From the human T2T-CHM13v2.0 reference genome, Homo sapiens: 64,000 nucleotides of DNA. Positions 7,371 through 33,689 of the stretch are shown in pieces. The stretch is taken from the NCBI RefSeq assembly GCF_009914755.1, contig NC_060940.1. One strand, 5' to 3'. Each line of letters begins with the position of its first letter. The stretch's first letter is position 1. The notes under the pieces were generated by a model. That model did not search any database. It was not told the origin of the DNA and worked only from the letters and a program-made list of their open reading frames with translations. A program made the position numbers and the translations under genes.

Positions 7371-7535
7371 TTAAATCCTCAAAACAGTCATGTGAGGCAG
7401 TTATTATTGTCACCTGCCTCCACTGTGGCACATGATATAGATGAGAAAACAGAGTTAGGGAGAGGTGATATAACTCTCTCAAGATCACACAGTCAATAAG
7501 TGACAGAGTTGGTATTGAAAAGTAAGTAGACTGAA
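7371..7535 (-). mobile_element. MIR
   Basis: aatcctcaaaacag..gatgagaaaacagag..tcaagatcacacagtcaataagtgacagag MIR core. Confidence 0.7.
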
Positions 7536-8424
7536 ACCAACAAAAAGCAATCAGATTATCATATTTGGATTGCCTCACTTAGCAACTAGAATATGTCAGC
7601 CCCTATATAGATGCCCTTGAGGGAACAGCCTTAGAAGAGACTGAAAGTTAGATTCCTGCAGCTAACCAGTTAGAAGGAGAGACTAAACCAGAATACACAC
7701 ATCTTGTCTTATTGTTCTCTTCCCTATACCATCCTGTTATTTATCCTGTGCAGGCATTACATTATAAAGTGGTAAAATAAGCAGAAGAATAATACAAAAA
7801 GTATTTATTTACAACCGGTTATGTATCATACTCTCTTCTGGACACTAAGGAAAAGTTTCAAACCTTACAAATTACAGATCCAAATGTTATAATGTATTGC
7901 CAAGTAATGGAATCCCAGTTGACCATACTCTCAATTGACTGAGACCTTCTTATACATAGTTGCATTTTGCATAAACAAAAATTTCATTCTATCACAAATC
8001 CCATTGCATGAAGCCCATTTTCCTTTAAGTGTTATTTGCTCAGACTGCAGCAGCCTGGCATCATACAGGCAAGCATAATGCCTCCATTAACTATTGTGCC
8101 CAAAGTTTCATAGTTGTGGCATAACAGGCTTTAGAATTTATAGAACAACTATAGAATTATAGAACAATCAAGGCTTTATAGAACTGCCATAACTGCTAGC
8201 TCCAACACCACAGGTAGGATTTTAGGAAATGCTTGTGCTACTATTGCAAATGTTTTTAACAGTATTTTGTTGTTTTATTTGTTTGGTTGGTTGGCTGTTT
8301 TTGTCCAATTTTGAGCAAAGTTTGCTCCCTTTGTTTTCCACTCCTGTATAACATTGACAACTATCTAAACATCTTTGCATCTATAAAAGTGTTTAGGACA
8401 TGCCAGTTGCTTTAACAAACGTAC

Positions 8425-25878: not shown

Positions 25879-28147
25879 GCAAGATGGTATAAGGATTAAA
25901 TGGAAAAATGTACAATAAAAATTATTATAGTTCCTGGAACATAGGCCTGCAATTGGTGGTCATTGACATGGTGGCAGTGACAGTGGTGAAAGTGACGGTG
26001 ATGATATTATTCCACTTGATACAATATATTTTGTACAGTAGGAATTTTCTTGAAATACCAAATTAATAATCTTTTTGTGCATGACTTGTTTTCTTATTCT
26101 CTCTTATGTTTTGTACCTTTGCCCTATGTACTCTTCTTCTGATTGAAATGTTGTTTATCTTTCCCTCTCAACCTACACTCATTCCTAACTCCTATCTCCT
26201 TGTTAATTCTTACCCCCATAACAGAAATTAGCAAAAATATTACATACTCAAAAAGACCTGTCTGGAGATCTCTGCCTAGGTCACATCCACATAAATATTC
26301 TTCCAATGTGCCACTCCGAGCACATTATCTGAGTTATGATTTGTATCTGTGTGATTTGTGTATAGGTGTGAGTCATCTTGCATACTAGCTATATGTTCCA
26401 CAGGTGTAGGGTGTATATTTTTGCTCAACATGGTATCCCAACACATAGCTCAGATTCTGGCCCAGGGTTGCTATGTAACACACATTTAGTGCATAAATTT
26501 GTGATTAAAGATACAGGAAAAAAAGGGGTTATAGCAAATGAAGATTGTGGGGGACTAATAGCAAGGAGCATTATTCTAAGCAGTGAAAACCTCTCCAGTC
26601 TGTTTCCAATAGAGTTTCTTTATTGTTCCTTTTTCAACCCCTTTTTAAATCCTTATAATGGCTATTCAGGTCTCCGCACGTGTTTATTTCTTTGTTCTTC
26701 ATGCAATTTCTTCCTTCCAAAGAGTCCATTTGGTAGCTCTGATAAGTCAAGAGAAGATATGCATCCTCTCGGCTTTCAGAGCTCTGCAGTGTAGACTTGG
26801 CTAAAGTCCTGAAGCCCCCCAAAATATAAAGAGCCAGCTGAACATGCGGCATGAATTTACCTTTCTCCTCGTGTTTACTGTCTCTGCATTTCTGGTTCAA
26901 CTTCAGTTGCCTGAGTTAATATTCATCCTCAAAAACTTGAAAGAGCCTAATTTTTGCATTTTTGGAAGATATCCTAGAAGAGGTGTATTTCTCCTTTTAT
27001 AAAAGGAATCTTTTACAATATGAGTGAAGCCTTCTTTAATAATACAAATTATGAATGCAAATTTGCATGACCAAAATCTTTTATTTAAAATGAATGAAGA
27101 AATCATAGCAGATTACAAACTGAAAAGATTACAAATATCACACAGTCCAAAAGAATAGCATATTTTTAATTAATTAACTTATTGAAACACTTCCATAATA
27201 CTTTTTGTTTTCTAAAGTATTTGGCTGTGTAGTCTCATGACAGTTTTGGATTATCCTGTTTTATAGAGTGAATAGAAAGTTATTTTCAGTCTTTTATCTA
27301 GCAAGTTTGATTGTTTTTTGCTTATTTTTCTTGAATTATCAACGATATCCTTGAAGGAATAAAAATGGTGATTTGACTAGGTTTCAGTGAGAACAAAATT
27401 CTTTCTTTACAAAGTTACATGTGTATGGGTTAGAAGATTATTCCACACACAAGTTTTAAATTTTACATCTTTTTTCTCCTCCATCGCTTAGTTCTGATGT
27501 TGGGGGCCATAGGACATTTTTGCATAATGATACCAACTATTTATGTTTTGCTATGAGAGACAGAATCATAGCTTGGGAAGTCATTCTCACTTTGAGACAG
27601 CCAGCAGTAGCAACCATACACACAGCAAACGAACTATATAAAAATATTCTGTGAAATCCATGTATTCCTGGCACGATTTTCCTTTAGCCAGATCCCAAAA
27701 ATGTCCATGGAGCACCTCAACTCCAACTAACCCAAGCAAAGAGTAAGACATAGAAGGATTTGGGAAGGAAAGACACAATGACCAATCAAGATTAAAATGT
27801 TTTACTTTGCAAATTGTATAAAAGCCTGACAATCTGGCTACGGTGGTGGACCCTCTGAAATAATGGGCCCCTGTGTTGAGCTGCTTTTTTGTTTTGGTAA
27901 ATATATCTTTTCTTCCTAAACAAACTCCTCTTGGCAAACATCATTCAGTAACACGAGCCTTCTCTCTGTCAGGAAAATAATATATTATCAGGAACATCAT
28001 AAGGATACAATGCTGATGGCATGTTTCTTTTCAGAGGAGGGATATTGAATCAAAGTGCTGGCCTAGATCCTACCTACTACTAGATTCCAGATTACACTGA
28101 AGAGGACGTAGTAAGAATAATTGTTACCATAGCTCTCATAGCAAGCT

Positions 28148-28459
<312 letters not shown>

Positions 28460-28968
28460 AGCAAGCTTTTTTTAAACTACATACTGTATAACATACACTG
28501 TGTCAAGAGTTACATGATGTATTTCATTGTTTTTTATGATGTCTCTGTGAGAATGTCTGTGTAATAGTTTCACAGTACAGGCAAAAATGCTGAAACATAG
28601 ACAAATTAAGTAAACTATCCCAATGATAAGCTGGTAGAATTGGCATTTTCAGTACGGAAATCTGATTCCAGTGCTCTTAGCCACTATATTTCAGTGCTTC
28701 TTGGTTTCTTATACATATCTTTTCTCAAAAATGTAAAGAATCTAAGTTTTGGAATGCAAACAAGTTAAATTTAAATCTCCCTTGGAATATCACTAGTTAA
28801 ATGAATCAGTTTCTTTTTACTGTTATCAATTAAATTTTGCTTCTTATCTGTAGGATAATAATTTTCAAGTACATACTTCATAACACTTTTTGAAAAATAA
28901 GTGAGATAATGTGCAAGACAACCTTTAGCCCATTGGACAAGGCATGTCTCTGAGCTGTAGTTTCTTCA

Positions 28969-29368
28969 TGTCAGGCCTCTGAGCCTAAGCCAAGCCATCG
29001 CATCTTCTGTGACTTGCACGTATGCATCCAGATGGCCTGAAGGAACTGAAGATCTACAAAAGAAGTAAAAATAGCCTTAACTGATGACATTCCACCATAG
29101 TGATTTGTTCCTGCACTACCTTAACTGATCAATGTACTTTGTAATTCTCCGCACCCTTGAGAATGTACTTTGTGAGATCCACCCCTGCCTGCAAAACATT
29201 GCTCTTAACTTCACCGCCTATCTTAAAACTTGTAAGAACTAATGATAATCCACCACATTTTGCTGACTCTCTTTTCGGACTCAGCCTACCTGCACCCAGG
29301 TGAAATAAACAGCTTTATTGCTCACACAAAGCCTGTTTGGTGGTCTCTTCACACAGACGCACATGAAA
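28969..29368 (+). promoter_or_regulatory. 5' LTR, LTR7 family (LTR7B-like)
   Basis: tgtcaggcctctgagcc..gaaataaacagc..acatgaaa; AATAAA present; aligns without gaps to the 3' LTR. Confidence 0.93.
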
Positions 29369-29370
29369 TT

Positions 29371-29388
29371 TGGTGCCGTGACTCGGAT
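29371..29388 (+). other. tRNA-His primer-binding site
   Basis: tggtgccgtgactcggat, 2 nt after the LTR; complement of the 3' 18 nt of tRNA-His(GUG). Confidence 0.95.
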
Positions 29389-29510
29389 TTGAAATTGGTG
29401 AGATGTTTCTTGGGCTGGTCGGTCTGAGGACCTGAGGTCGTAGGTGGATCTTTTTCATGGAGCAAAGAGCAGGAGGACAGGGGATTGATCTCCCAAGGGA
29501 GGTCCCCCCG
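29384..29510 (-). other. Inverted HERV-H leader segment (post-PBS up to the major splice donor)
   Basis: Reverse complement reads cggggggacctcccttgggagatcaatcccctgtcc...catctcaccaatttcaaatccg, the sequence that normally follows the HERV-H PBS on the plus strand. Confidence 0.9.
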
Positions 29511-30133
29511 TTCCCCTCATGACACCGACACAACAAAAAAGAGTTATTCCACTAATTCCCTTGATGGTCAGTTTAGGACTTTCTGCCTCCACTATTGCTC
29601 TCAGTACTGGAATAGCAGGCATTTCAACCTCTGTCACGACCTTCCGTAGCCTGTCTAATGACTTCTCTGCTAGCTTCACAGACATATCACAAACTTTATC
29701 AGTCCTCCAGGCCCAAGTTGACTCTTTAGCTGCAGTTGTCCTCCAAAACCGCTGAGGCCTTGACTTACTCACTGCTGAAAAAGGAGGACTCTGTATATTC
29801 TTAAATGAAGAGAGTTGTTTTTACCTAAATCAATCTGGCCAGGTGTATGACAACAAAAAAACTCAAGGATAGAGCCCAAAAACTTGCCAACCAAGCAAGT
29901 AATTACGCTGAATCCCTTGGGCACTCTCTAATTGGATGTCCTGGGTCCTCCCAATTTTTAGTCCTTTAATACCCATTTTTCTCCTTCTTTTATTCGGACC
30001 TTGTATCTTCCATTTAGTTTCTCAATTCATCCAAAACCGTATCCAGGCCATGACCAATCATTCTATACGACAAATGTTTCTTCTAACATCCCCACAATAT
30101 CACCCCTTACCACAAGACCTCCCTTCAGCTTAA
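29511..30133 (+). pseudogene. env: HERV-H env TM remnant (cleavage site, fusion peptide, immunosuppressive domain, membrane anchor, tail), disrupted
   Basis: TQQKR|VIPLIPLMVSLGLS...[26 protein letters not shown]...MSWVLPIFSPLIPIFLLLLFGPCIF...LPSA*. TGA at 29753-29755 and frameshifting between ~29850 and ~29920. Confidence 0.93.
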
Positions 30134-30295
30134 TCTCTCCCACTCTAGGTTCCCACGCTGCCCCTAATCCCGCTTGAAGCAGCCCTGAGAAACATCACCC
30201 ATTCTCTCTCCATACCACCGCCCAAAAATTTTCGCCGCCCCAACACTTCAACACTATTTTGTGTTATTTTTCTTATTAATATAAGAAGGCAGGAA

Positions 30296-30695
30296 TATCA
30301 GGCCTCTGAACCCAAGCCAAGCCATCGCATCCCCTGTGACTTGCAGGTATACATCCAGATGGCCTGAAGTAACTGAAGATCCACAAAAGAAGTAAAAATA
30401 GCCTTAACTGATGACATTCCAACATTGTGATTTGTTCCTGCCCCACCCTAACTGATCAATGTACTTTGTAATTCTCCCCACCCTTGAGAATGTACTTTGT
30501 GAGATCCACCCCTACCCGCAAAACATTGCTCTTAACTTCACCACCTATCCCAAAACCTGTAAGAACTAATGATAATACACCACCCTTTGCTGACTCTCTT
30601 TTCGGACTCAGCCCACCTGCACCCAGGTGAAATAAACAGCTTTATTGCTCACACAAACCCTGTTTGGTGGTCTCTTCACAGGGACGCACATGAAA
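30296..30695 (+). promoter_or_regulatory. 3' LTR, LTR7 family (LTR7B-like), preceded by the polypurine tract
   Basis: aagaaggcaggaa then tatcaggcctctgaaccc..catgaaa. Confidence 0.93.
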
Positions 30696-30740
30696 CTTCA
30701 CACAGCAGCTATTTGCCCTTAGGCACCTCCATTTCCTTTA

Positions 30741-31113
<373 letters not shown>

Positions 31114-33689
31114 AAGATAAAATGGAAAACAAAGGTGAAAGGGGTATATCAATTGTAAAGTATAATGCAAAATATACGTAGCTAATATTTTCTACTATCT
31201 TTTTTAGCAACCATTACTAGTGTCATATTTTGAATTCATAGAACATTATGGCTACTAAGTATATGAACATCAGGTGTTTGAAAAGTCAGATAAAACTTGG
31301 GCCTGTGTCCATCTTTGAGGAAAGGGAGGAGACAGGAAAATGAGTTTTAAGTTCGTCCAATCAATTAAAACTAAATTCCTGGTGGCGTAAGTTGTTTCTG
31401 GTTTTGACATTTTTGTCCCCATAGGTGGTGAGCACAGAGCCTAGGTGGACTACTAGGTCACTTTTACTTTAATTTCTCTTTGCCACAAAAACAGACTCTG
31501 CCTGGAGTTCAACAATAAAACATTTTAAAGTAGGCAATAAAAAAAAATCACAGTTTTTTATCCATTAATGTAGCTGTATTTTAGACACAGTCTCCAGATT
31601 ATTCCTTTTTTTATAATGAGGATGACATTTTCTTTGGTGTTGCTTTAAAAATGTAGACTGTAAATGCTGAGAAAGAGGCAATTCTTACACAGTGCATTAA
31701 GTGCATTATATTAATTAATTTACATGTCTTTACTGTGCCTCATTCATCCAATTCACACATCTTCCCTAGACCTCAATTTACTATGAAAGCAGTGTCTCTC
31801 CTTACACTTTAATTTGGACCAAGACCAAGTGAAACCAAGATGGAAGGGAGATATAAAAAAAGGTGGACATGGTTTATTATAGGGAGAGAGGAAGCAAAAT
31901 GGCCTCTTAGATATTTCCAACAGAGGACATGACATTTTCAGAAGAGTCAAAAAAAATTTGTAAAGTCACCTTTTCCATTTCGTCACCCATTTACTGTTGG
32001 TATATTCATGGCTAGTTACAAGAAAAGGCAGGGTAAAGTCACACTAGGGAACAGTAATTCACTTAGGTAATCATCAGAAAGGAGTAATGGGGAAGTTTCT
32101 AAAATGCCAGTGTACACAAGATATTGTTGTGGTACGATTAATGAGCCAAAGGGAGAAATGCCCTTCAAGTAGGCTGACAGTTGCCAAGTCCTCTGACATT
32201 TTACCATGTGGCCACAGCCTCTTAAATTCCTTCTGATGCTGAACTCCACTGTAAGATCAGAAAGGTAAATGAGAACAAGAGCAGAAGTTCATTCTTCTGA
32301 GGAATTCATGATTTCCTAGTGTAGCTTGTGAATCTCTAATTGCTGCTGCCAATCATGTTTGGCCTTCTTACCTGATCTTTAGTCTGTCAAGCTCATCAAT
32401 AAAGATTTTCAGCTCAGTAAAAGCAGAAGATTCCAAAACTACAATGGTTCTCTATGACTAAACACATTACTCAATTCTAATATGGCTTTTGGTTTTCTCG
32501 CTATTGCCTTAAGTCTTAACTTTTCCCTAATGTCATTCACTCTTATGTCATCTTTCTCTGCCTTCTATACCTGGCATCAAAGCAGAATACCCAACTCTTT
32601 CTTCCTGCAGTCATCTAGACAGACAAGCACAAGTACGTTTATCTTTTTAAGGATTACACCCTGATTAATAAGGGAAAGGTAGAATGATACTGACAAAATA
32701 ACAATGAAAGAATAAACTAATATTTCAGACTTATATACAGTTATCACAGTTCATGGCTCTAGACTGTAGTTTCTACCATCCTTTTAATATTATAAATGGA
32801 CATAACATTTGGCTGACATTCTTAAATATTTTTCCTATGCTTTTAACTCACTGACTATTTCTCAGTCTTACAGTCTAAACACTATGATGATATGTGTTTT
32901 GATAATTCTTAAAGTGAACACGTCTCAATCAACTATACTGCACAGCACAGAACACAGCACTTCCTTGTTCAAATTGTTAATGTGTGTAACTAAGCACTGC
33001 AGCTTGGGTTAGGTTTCTTTTGCCACTCCTGCTTTCCAAGAGTGACTCTCACCTTCTTCTCCTTACACATCTTTTTTTCTCAGATCTTAGATCCAATTCG
33101 GGAAAACTCATAGGATCCCCAAGCAGGTTACTTCATAGGTTAGCAACAGGATCATCCCCATGGTGTCCATGTCTCCTTCTACCCCAGTTCCTGTAACCAG
33201 GTCCCTGCCTCTTCTCTGCTTTGCTCTTCCTAATATCACCCTGTTATTGGGGTCATCCCTTACCCTATGCGGCTTATTACACTCCCCAAGAATTTCATTC
33301 AGAGCATAGGAAGTCCCCTGTATCCTTGGAGCCATATGCTCTTGTGAAACCTGGTTAGATGATTTGGTATCTGTCCTGGCCACTTCCTATGTTTCATTCT
33401 ACTGCTTGTACAGAAAGTAGACTTGCCTATAACCATGGCTCCATTCAAAATGCAGACATTTTTATCATTAAGGAAAGATCAATTTTGATGCATACAAAAA
33501 TCTCTGGAATGGGAGTGTAGATGCCTCTAAGGAACTACTTTCAGGATCTTTAGTCGGTCCCCTCTATCCCAGCCCCTCATGAATTAACTGTAAGTGTGTC
33601 TGTGCCCACAGGTTCAGTTTCACCCTGTGGCTTAGTGAACGACACAATTGGGGCAAGAAAAATACCAATTGACGTTTATTACTCATGGT

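What the first reader, a model, noticed from the sequence alone, without database searches (positions are those of the whole stretch)
28964..30700. Single-event model: fossil of a failed second strand transfer during reverse transcription
Inference joining the two observations above. Plus-strand strong-stop DNA is U3-R-U5 plus the 18-nt PBS and ends in ...CGGAT, exactly the left breakpoint. If minus-strand synthesis had reached only the env SU/TM border, that 3' end had no PBS partner and could misprime on AUCCG in the leader RNA. Read-through into tRNA-His would give CGGATTCGAA (recalled tRNA sequence), a 9/10 match to the observed cggatttgaa. RT would copy the leader backwards until blocked at the tRNA-occupied PBS, which is the right end of the inversion, then jump to the truncated minus strand in env through a C-rich microhomology. 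The delay would leave the strong-stop DNA single-stranded and explain plus-strand CC editing in only the 5' LTR. The alternative is a post-integration germline rearrangement with kataegis near the breakpoint.
Basis: inference. Interest (0 to 1): 0.7.

Follow-up and report, generated by a model that had tools for sequence, protein, structure and literature searches.

The report
HERV-H provirus with backwards-copied leader
A truncated human endogenous retrovirus carries its leader segment back to front, starting exactly at the end of its tRNA primer site; two other copies elsewhere in the genome share that junction, which points to a repeatable copying error made before insertion.

Summary
Window 28964-30700 is a 1.7-kb HERV-H-type provirus with two 400-nt LTRs, an intact 5-bp target duplication (CTTCA) and a tRNA-His primer binding site (PBS). 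Right after the PBS, the 126-nt leader lies in reverse complement. It joins the PBS through the 5-nt overlap CGGAT, and its far end is fused to env just before the SU/TM cleavage site.

The 5' LTR alone carries 12 plus-strand C>T changes. All 12 are at C preceded by C (12 of 45 such sites against 0 of 74 other Cs).

New here: the same PBS/inverted-leader junction occurs at two other HERV-H loci, on chr1 and chr3. These have different LTR types, different target duplications and different right-hand junctions. In all three, the sequence lost starts at the same leader site, and the inversion ends within about 12 nt of the PBS edge.

Best reading (about 0.6) is a recurrent reverse-transcription error. 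Plus-strand strong-stop DNA primes on the leader RNA, copies it backwards, then jumps to minus-strand DNA. This is a variant of the aberrant second-strand transfer described for HIV-1.

The tRNA read-through detail is not needed. Whether the editing is linked to the inversion is unproven, because chr1 and chr3 lack it. Orthologues could not be checked.

The parts
28964..28968 (+). Left copy of the 5-bp target-site duplication CTTCA
   Evidence: Identical pentamer abuts both LTRs.
28969..29368 (+). 5' LTR (LTR7-type, 400 nt). Carries 12 plus-strand CC>CT changes at 28986, 29005, 29006, 29055, 29117, 29121, 29190, 29223, 29224, 29230, 29258 and 29287, plus C>A/C>G changes at 29115, 29151 and 29257 in C runs.
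   Evidence: Aligned to the 3' LTR and polarised with 14 related LTRs.
29371..29388 (+). Primer binding site for tRNA-His, intact (18 nt). Preceded by TT at 29369-29370.
   Evidence: Complement of the tRNA-His gene 3' end plus CCA. Same in other HERV-H copies.
29384..29388 (+). Left junction: the 5-nt overlap CGGAT, shared by the PBS 3' end and the reverse complement of leader nt 122-126 (ATCCG, followed by GTAAG in normal copies).
29389..29510 (-). Leader nt 121 to 1 in reverse complement. Differs from most normal copies by 1 substitution, with one extra C in the terminal C run (29504-29509).
   Evidence: 94-99% reverse match to 18 of 18 normal copies; alignment.
29504..29510 (+). Right junction: an imperfect C-rich overlap between the inverted leader end (CCCCCG) and env (CTCCCTG).
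   Evidence: This junction is unique in the genome.
29510..29869 (+). Env remnant: the last 11 codons of SU, the QQKR cleavage site, and TM with fusion peptide and immunosuppressive-domain region. The reading frame is broken by stop codons.
   Evidence: Pfam TLV_coat 387-495 of 560, E 1.5e-30; translation; 94-97% identity to 39 other copies.
29870..30295 (+). Rest of TM and the 3' non-coding region, ending in the purine-rich tract AAGAAGGCAGGAA (30283-30295).
   Evidence: Collinear with 12 other copies at 91-96% identity; sequence. The name 'polypurine tract' is from position and composition only.
30296..30695 (+). 3' LTR (400 nt). Has 9 derived changes, none C>T. Its first bases read TATCAGG instead of TGTCAGG.
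30696..30700 (+). Right copy of the target-site duplication CTTCA

Best explanation
This is a defective HERV-H provirus whose structure was made during reverse transcription, before integration, by an aberrant second (plus-strand) transfer.

**Proposed steps (all inferred, not observed).**
1. Plus-strand strong-stop DNA (U3-R-U5-PBS) ends in ...CGGAT-3'.
2. It found no PBS complement, because minus-strand DNA had reached only about 785 nt past the polypurine tract.
3. Its 3' end paired with AUCCG at leader nt 122-126 of still-uncopied genomic RNA. This is the first such site after the PBS.
4. It was extended towards the RNA 5' end, which wrote the leader backwards.
5. Extension ended at the PBS edge, at the RNA end or at a tRNA-bound PBS.
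6. The 3' end then switched by a short C-rich overlap to the growing end of minus-strand DNA in env.
7. Both strands were completed, giving a linear DNA with two full LTRs, which was integrated with a 5-bp duplication.

The same first step happened independently in the chr1 and chr3 copies, followed by different second jumps.

**Sub-claim on the editing (about 0.5).** The 12 CC>CT changes confined to the 5' LTR are APOBEC3G-type deamination of the strong-stop DNA while it was single-stranded. Both strands of the 5' LTR descend from that molecule, so such edits would appear there and nowhere else.
For: **Shown**
- The left junction lies exactly at the PBS 3' end, with a 5-nt overlap.
- The inverted block runs from the first ATCCG after the PBS back to the base next to the PBS.
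- Both LTRs and the target duplication are intact.
- A 28-nt junction pattern (up to 3 mismatches) and a 72-nt BLAST query each find exactly three junction-spanning loci: the window, chr1:233.07 Mb and chr3:181.01 Mb.
- The three differ in several respects:
  - LTR type: chr1 against the window is 79% identical with many gaps.
  - Target duplications: CTTCA against GTAAT.
  - LTR-LTR identity: 92.8, 97.7 and 94.1%.
  - Right junctions: env; the leader repeat region; leader nt ~353 after 12 nt of inverted PBS.
- In 3 of 3 the lost DNA begins at the same leader site and lies downstream of it. The model requires this.
- In 3 of 3 the inversion ends within about 12 nt of the leader/PBS boundary.
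- chr1 and chr3 are not sisters in a 650-nt gag-proximal tree (AU test of a joint clade p = 0.048).
- chr3 pairs with a different copy in the 3' region (support 99/98).
- The closest LTR relatives of the window element (chr7:29.92 Mb, chr2:45.04 Mb) have normal leaders.

**Editing**
- 12 of 45 CC sites changed against 0 of 74 other Cs (p = 3e-6).
- The split between the LTRs is 12:0 (p = 5e-4).
- The internal region has 1 private C>T in 785 nt.
- Six other HERV-H LTR pairs show 0-3 such sites.

**Literature**
- HIV-1 proviruses with deletions starting right after an intact PBS are ascribed to aberrant second-strand transfer. There are 44 cases with tRNA inserts (PMC12657518, sections 10-11 and passages read).
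- LTR-specific APOBEC3 edits made late in reverse transcription are described for 3' LTRs (PMC12548423, passages read).
Against: - No orthologue or empty site could be examined. An origin before integration is therefore inferred from recurrence, not shown for this locus.
- Independence of the three loci rests on a borderline AU test (p = 0.048), on unresolved placement of chr16 against chr1 (polytomy), and on LTR types that recombination between co-packaged RNAs could shuffle. The 125-nt leader has no informative shared variants either way.
- Only 40 of 804-1111 first-look candidates were scored in each BLAST search, so diverged further copies may exist.
- Strong-stop DNA is normally base-paired to its template. 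That it became single-stranded needs an extra assumption (displacement by a second plus strand).
- chr1 and chr3 have the inversion without any 5'-LTR C>T skew.
- The last ~100 nt of the 5' LTR and PBS hold 5 unedited CC sites.
- The predicted pairing of the PBS 3' half with the ATCCG region in normal leader RNA appears in the MFE and centroid folds, but the fold is no more stable than shuffles (z = 0.41).
Confidence: 0.6

Rival explanations
1. One founder, not three events. A single HERV-H genome acquired the inverted leader once, by whatever means, and was then copied by retrotransposition. The chr16 and chr1 forms arose from a chr3-like form through later deletions, and recombination swapped the LTR types.
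For: - The left junction is identical in all three loci.
- chr3 has the longest inverted block and the smallest deletion, and its LTR pair is more diverged than that of chr1.
- chr16 and chr1 are unresolved relative to each other.
- Both are close to the same chr7:29.92 Mb provirus in different regions.
- C runs can be hot spots for template switching (general knowledge, not tested here).
Against: - No two loci share a right junction.
- No further copies of any of the three forms were found.
- Two secondary deletions would both have to start within about 10 nt of the leader/PBS boundary.
- Three LTR types would need at least two recombinations.
- chr1 plus chr3 as one clade is disfavoured (p = 0.048), and chr3 groups elsewhere with 99/98 support.
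Confidence: 0.2
2. Post-integration germline rearrangement. A normal provirus at this site later suffered a break or replication-fork template switch (MMBIR or end joining) that inverted the leader and deleted 6-7 kb, with APOBEC-type clustered mutation near the break.
For: - Both junctions show microhomology, as in replication-based rearrangements.
- Germline clusters of C>T at CC/CCC exist in hominid genomes (PMC4864454, abstract and section 4 read).
- Inverted Alu elements bracket the element.
- No orthologue data are available to exclude it.
Against: - A chromosomal accident has no reason to start at the last base of the PBS. Doing so at three unlinked loci, using the same 5-nt leader site each time, is very unlikely.
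- The edits stay within the 5' LTR (28986-29287). The adjacent inverted leader shows one C>T, not at a CC site, and env shows one private C>T in 785 nt. Yet both of those lie nearer the breakpoints.
- The published germline clusters are defined as two or more mutations no more than 50 bp apart. Here 12 edits span 300 nt.
Confidence: 0.08
3. Two unrelated events. The inversion and deletion are a reverse-transcription error as above. The 5'-LTR CC>CT cluster arose separately after integration, for example by APOBEC3G acting on the non-template strand of a transcribed or R-loop-forming LTR in germline or early-embryo cells. This overlaps with the first part of the best explanation; only the origin of the edits differs.
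For: - chr1 and chr3 have the inversion but no skew.
- Plus-strand DNA is held not to be single-stranded in normal reverse transcription (PMC4488724, passages read).
- A3G-type germline clusters are enriched in transcribed regions (PMC4864454, section 4).
Against: - The cluster respects the LTR: the first edit is 17 nt inside it and there are none in the next 900 nt.
- The 3' LTR, which has the same sequence, has none.
- Most edits lie in what should be U3, upstream of the element's own transcription start. The U3/R border is recalled, not mapped here.
Confidence: 0.3

Closest known systems
Aberrant (deferred) second-strand transfer in HIV-1 proviruses (Hardy et al. 2025, PMC12657518)
   Same: The 5' LTR and full PBS are intact and are followed at once by foreign-order sequence and a large internal deletion. 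This is explained by plus-strand strong-stop DNA being extended on the wrong template and then landing downstream on minus-strand DNA.
   Different: In HIV-1 the extra piece is 7-54 nt of the tRNA primer. Here it is the virus's own 126-nt leader copied backwards, and no tRNA bases are needed. The words 'inversion' and 'inverted' do not occur in that paper.
Twin priming of LINE-1 (5' inversion with deletion)
   Same: During reverse transcription of a retroelement, a second 3' end primes on the RNA through a few bases of homology. The result is an inverted segment next to a deletion, with microhomology at the joints. The role of twin priming in small human inversions was seen in the abstract listing of bioRxiv 10.1101/2021.12.20.472354. 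The mechanism itself is recalled.
   Different: LINE-1 uses target-primed reverse transcription on chromosomal DNA ends. Here the primer would be a viral replication intermediate inside a capsid, and the product is integrated by integrase with LTRs and a 5-bp duplication.
APOBEC3 hypermutation of retroviruses and ERVs, including 3'-LTR-specific G>A (Shaffer et al. 2025, PMC12548423)
   Same: A strand-coordinated cluster at the A3G target CC/CCC. The asymmetry between LTRs is explained by which strand is single-stranded late in reverse transcription.
   Different: The polarity is opposite (C>T on the plus strand, not G>A). It is in the 5' LTR, not the 3' LTR, and there is no genome-wide gradient.
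Germline APOBEC3G-type mutation clusters (Pinto et al. 2016, PMC4864454)
   Same: C-coordinated clusters with a CC/CCC motif in hominid DNA.
   Different: Those are chromosomal events not tied to LTR borders. Here 12 edits fill one LTR and spare its twin.

Membership tests
HERV-H (LTR7-type) provirus | LTRs homologous to other HERV-H LTRs | tested here: met
   The 3' LTR matches 39 other genomic LTRs at 82-95% identity. The family name LTR7/HERV-H is recalled, not given by any tool.
HERV-H (LTR7-type) provirus | PBS complementary to the tRNA-His 3' end | tested here: met
   The 18-nt PBS equals the complement of the tRNA-His(GTG) gene end plus CCA.
HERV-H (LTR7-type) provirus | Internal gag-pol-env in normal order | tested here: not met
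   Only the inverted leader and 785 nt from the env SU/TM border to the LTR remain. It is a truncated, rearranged member.
HERV-H (LTR7-type) provirus | Integrase-type insertion with a short target duplication | tested here: met
   CTTCA on both sides.
Aberrant second-strand-transfer product | Complete 5' LTR and complete PBS, with the breakpoint at the PBS 3' end | tested here: met
   The same holds at chr1 and chr3.
Aberrant second-strand-transfer product | tRNA-derived insert after the PBS (as in the HIV-1 cases) | tested here: not met
   After CGGAT the window follows the inverted leader for 120 nt. The tRNA-His continuation TCGAACCGAGG matches only 4 of the first 5 bases. None of at least 215 exact-PBS copies shows it.
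Aberrant second-strand-transfer product | Made before integration | not testable with these tools
   Needs orthologous loci in other primates. Recurrence at three loci is indirect support.
APOBEC3G editing | Clustered, strand-coordinated C>T at CC, preferably CCC | tested here: met
   12 of 12 at CC and 8 of 12 at CCC. 12 of 45 CC sites against 0 of 74 other Cs.
APOBEC3G editing | Minus-strand polarity (G>A on the plus strand) with a gradient along the genome | tested here: not met
   The changes are C>T on the plus strand and confined to the 5' LTR. The 4 G>A changes of the 3' LTR are not in GG or GA contexts.
Replication-based chromosomal rearrangement (MMBIR/FoSTeS) | Template switches joined by microhomology, at positions set by the chromosome and not by viral intermediates | tested here: inconclusive
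   Microhomology is present. However, the left joint coincides with a viral replication end at three loci.

The most novel reading that the evidence does not exclude
HERV-H has a built-in hot spot for a kind of reverse-transcription error not yet described. Plus-strand strong-stop DNA primes on the leader RNA at the site that can pair with the PBS 3' end and writes the leader backwards, an LTR-retrovirus counterpart of LINE-1 twin priming. [quoted passage not shown]
Probability: 0.4. Interest if true: 0.7.

Novelty: new variant of a known kind. Interest (0 to 1): 0.55.

Why it matters
Defective proviruses are usually read as decay after insertion. Here three fossils share a joint at the exact end of a replication intermediate. 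They therefore record how reverse transcription failed millions of years ago, and they extend a class of error only recently described in HIV-1 reservoirs to an ancient gammaretrovirus-like family.

If the 5'-LTR-only CC>CT cluster was made on strong-stop DNA, two things follow. Plus strands can be APOBEC3G targets, and LTR-LTR divergence can over-date such proviruses: here 28 differences, of which 15 may be one event.

The model gives simple genome-wide search rules. Look for inversions or inserts anchored at PBS 3' ends, and for LTR-specific strand-specific edits.

Tried and rejected
- **Spliced-RNA origin.** The inverted block ends where GTAAG follows in normal copies, which suggested a spliced template. 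I rejected this because in chr1 and chr3 the sequence after the inversion is leader DNA downstream of that site, not a downstream exon.\n- **Degenerate inverted PBS at 29509-29526.** I rejected this reading. From 29510 on, the stretch is env in 39 of 39 copies.\n- **Simple inversion between the short inverted repeats CGGAT/ATCCG.** Rejected because all three loci also lack the DNA downstream of the leader site.\n- **tRNA read-through.** Not needed and not seen.\n- **A fourth candidate.** chr13:81.10 Mb has GGATTT after the PBS, but it proved to be a normal leader variant.\n- **Background survey of LTR pairs.** The 18-provirus survey could not be fetched. They cover only the held open-access library. 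An older J Virol paper on strand-transfer deletions, which I recalled, was not held.
Full report
**What is there**

The finding covers a complete but tiny provirus.
- Two 400-nt LTRs (28969-29368 and 30296-30695) are flanked by the pentamer CTTCA on both sides.
- Two bases after the 5' LTR lies TGGTGCCGTGACTCGGAT (29371-29388). The ten tRNA-His loci found in the same genome end in the complement of its last 15 bases, and ARAGORN calls one of them tRNA-His(GTG). This is therefore a tRNA-His primer binding site (PBS).
- The LTRs and the internal parts match hundreds of other copies in the genome. By recall these are HERV-H with LTR7-type LTRs; no tool supplied the name.

**The inversion**

In 18 of 18 other copies fetched (L003-L020), the PBS is followed by a conserved leader, CGGGGGACCTCCC...CAATTTCAAATCCG, and then GTAAG.
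- In the window, the same 126 nt lie in reverse complement directly after the PBS (29384-29510).
- The PBS ends in CGGAT and the reversed leader begins with CGGAT, so the left joint is a 5-nt overlap.
- ATCCG at leader nt 122-126 is the first ATCCG downstream of the PBS in 5 of 5 copies. A second one at nt 277 survives in 2 of 5. These positions come after correcting an offset error in my script.
- The reversed leader runs to its very first base, next to where the PBS would be.

At that point the sequence becomes env.
- 39 of 39 other copies match from 29510 onward.
- Eleven of them show what normally precedes...GAGCTCCCTG|TTCCCCTCATG.
- The joint reads GGTCCCCCC-G-TTCCCC. This is an imperfect C-rich overlap with one C more than most leaders have.
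- The translation (VPLMTPTQQKR|VIPL...) matches Pfam TLV_coat positions 387-495 of 560. That places the joint 11 codons before the SU/TM cleavage site.

**The edits**

The LTRs differ at 28 sites. I polarised each site with 14 related LTRs.
- The 5' LTR has 19 derived changes: 12 C>T, 2 C>A, 1 C>G, and one each of A>G, T>G, T>A and G>A.
- The 3' LTR has 9 derived changes: 4 G>A, 2 C>G, 2 C>A and 1 G>C.
- All 12 C>T changes are at a C preceded by C, and 8 of the 12 are in CCC.
- That is 12 of 45 such Cs against 0 of 74 other Cs (Fisher p = 3e-6).
- The 12:0 split between the LTRs has binomial p = 5e-4.
- The three C>A/C>G changes also sit in C runs beside edited sites.
- The edits span 28986-29287. 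The five CC sites further on, one of them in the PBS, are unchanged; this is too few to test a gradient.
- The 785 internal bases have 7 private changes, only one of them C>T.
- The four G>A changes of the 3' LTR are not in APOBEC3 contexts.
- Six other HERV-H LTR pairs (chr1, chr3, chr7, chr14, chr6, chr2) show 0-3 5'-T/3'-C sites in CC context, against 12 here.

**The new evidence: recurrence**

- A 28-nt pattern across the left joint (up to 3 mismatches) finds three places in the 3.1-Gb assembly. They are the window, chr1:233,075,179-206 (exact) and chr3:181,010,971-998 (2 mismatches). The reversed-pattern control found none.
- A 72-nt BLAST query across the joint gives the same three as the only junction-spanning hits. 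Only 40 of 804 first-look candidates were scored.
- Among copies with an exact 16-nt match to the PBS (at least 215), 29 have T as the next base.
- Only three of these have a non-G after that T. They are chr1, chr16 and a chr13 copy that is a normal leader variant.
- So none shows tRNA read-through.

**The other two loci**

*chr1*
- The element is 5.8 kb, with LTRs 97.7% identical and the target duplication GTAAT.
- It carries a different LTR type, 79% identical to the window LTR with many gaps.
- Its inverted leader ends in ...GGGAG|AGTACCCCAACCCC. This joins the C-rich end of the leader to a GTACCCC unit of the leader repeat region, and gag follows.

*chr3*
- The element is 7.3 kb, with LTRs 94.1% identical and yet another LTR type.
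- Here the backward copy ran 12 nt into the PBS (...ATCTGAGTCACG).
- It then joins leader nt ~353 at ACG|CCT.

The window's own right joint is unique in the genome.

Across all three loci:
- The left joint is the same.
- The missing DNA starts at the same leader site and lies downstream of it.
- The inversion ends within about 12 nt of the leader/PBS boundary.
- The second joint has a 1-4-nt or imperfect overlap.

**One origin or three**

- The 125-nt leader holds no variant shared by two of the three, so it is uninformative.
- In a 650-nt gag-proximal tree of 17 copies, chr1 sits with normal-leader copies (L016, then L012/L014/L015) and chr3 is basal. Forcing chr1 and chr3 together costs 9.25 log-likelihood units (AU p = 0.048).
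- In a 391-nt tree of the region before the 3' LTR, chr3 pairs with another copy (L027, support 99/98). chr16 and chr1 fall in an unresolved comb. The clade tests planned in that script did not run.
- The window's closest LTR relatives, the chr7:29.92 Mb provirus and chr2:45.04 Mb, have normal leaders.

I read this as three independent events, but recombination between co-packaged RNAs could mimic it. A single founder followed by two further deletions keeps about 0.2.

**Mechanism**

The strand logic holds.
1. DNA ending ...CGGAT-3' pairs with 5'-AUCCG-3' in plus-sense leader RNA.
2. Its extension towards the RNA 5' end writes exactly TTGAAATTGGTGAG..., as observed.
3. [quoted passage not shown]
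4. The need for uncopied leader RNA explains why the re-entry point is always downstream of the priming site.
5. The RNA 5' end, or a tRNA-bound PBS, explains why copying stops near the PBS edge.
6. After the second jump, each strand can be completed on the other. This gives two full LTRs, which fits the intact duplications.
7. In the window the re-entry point lies 785 nt upstream of the 3' LTR. That is about where the minus strand would be when a ~420-nt strong-stop DNA is finished (inference).

ViennaRNA pairs the PBS 3' half with the ATCCG region in the normal leader, in both the MFE and the centroid structure. The fold is not better than shuffles (z = 0.41), so this is weak support.

All of these steps are inferred from sequence. 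None is observed.

**Comparison with what is known**

*Aberrant second-strand transfer in HIV-1 (PMC12657518).* I read the abstract, sections 10-11 and passages. The paper models six kinds of aberrant strand transfer. One is a deferred second transfer: strong-stop DNA reads on into tRNA-Lys3 (7-54 nt, 44 sequences) and then lands downstream on minus-strand DNA. The HERV-H structure is the same class with a different wrong template. That paper never uses the words inversion or inverted.

*Inverted HIV-1 proviruses (PMC9278108).* From the passages read, this paper lists rare HIV-1 proviruses with inversions and asymmetric LTRs.

*Which strand is a deaminase target (PMC4488724 and PMC12548423).* From the passages read, PMC4488724 states that only the minus strand is single-stranded in normal reverse transcription. 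PMC12548423 reports 3'-LTR-specific G>A, explains it by late displacement of the minus strand, and calls this a first.

The mirror image seen here is plus-strand CC>CT in the 5' LTR only. It is what editing of strong-stop DNA would leave, because both strands of the 5' LTR descend from that molecule. It requires the strong-stop DNA to have been displaced from its template, which is an added assumption.

Germline A3G-type clusters in hominid DNA (PMC4864454, abstract and section 4) are the alternative source of the edits.

None of eight literature searches listed a prior description of a PBS-anchored inverted leader or of 5'-LTR plus-strand editing. Subscription-only and older papers are outside that library.

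**Verdict**

- The tRNA read-through element is superfluous.
- The causal link between inversion and editing is open: 1 of 3 inverted copies is edited.
- The decisive orthologue test remains to be done.
- This is a new variant of a known kind of error, of moderate interest to retrovirologists and paleovirologists.

Noticed in passing
window 28140-28473 and 30807-31137: Two Alu-like repeats in opposite orientation bracket the provirus. Their arms are 82-89% complementary and lie 2.4-2.9 kb apart. The left one has its own 14-nt direct repeat, AGCAAGCTTTTTTT, at both ends.
   Followed up: no
L038 (chr3:181.01 Mb element) 225-251 and 7490-7545: The LTR/host borders of the chr3 element do not show a clean 5-bp duplication. 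Instead GGTGATG occurs on both sides, set off from the LTR ends by 2 extra bases (AA / AT).
   Followed up: no
window 30296-30302: The 3' LTR begins TATCAGG, whereas the 5' LTR and all 14 related LTRs begin TGTCAGG. This is a G>A change in the conserved terminal dinucleotide.
   Followed up: partly
L016/L040/L041 (chr7:29.92-29.93 Mb provirus): The same normal-leader provirus is both the closest LTR relative of the window element (94-95%) and the closest gag-proximal relative of the chr1 inverted copy (96%).
   Followed up: partly
G000 C5:96672891-922 and C3:78643724-755: Two other HERV-H copies with an exact PBS are followed by unusual sequence: CAGGGGCGTGGGGGGG in one and an expanded G run in the other. 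They might be other kinds of PBS-anchored rearrangement or simple slippage.
   Followed up: no
L004 1478-1645 (normal leader): The leader site used for the inversion resembles the tRNA-His T-arm: TTCAAATCCG against TTCGAATCCG in the tRNA genes. It is also predicted to pair with the PBS 3' half in the RNA.
   Followed up: partly
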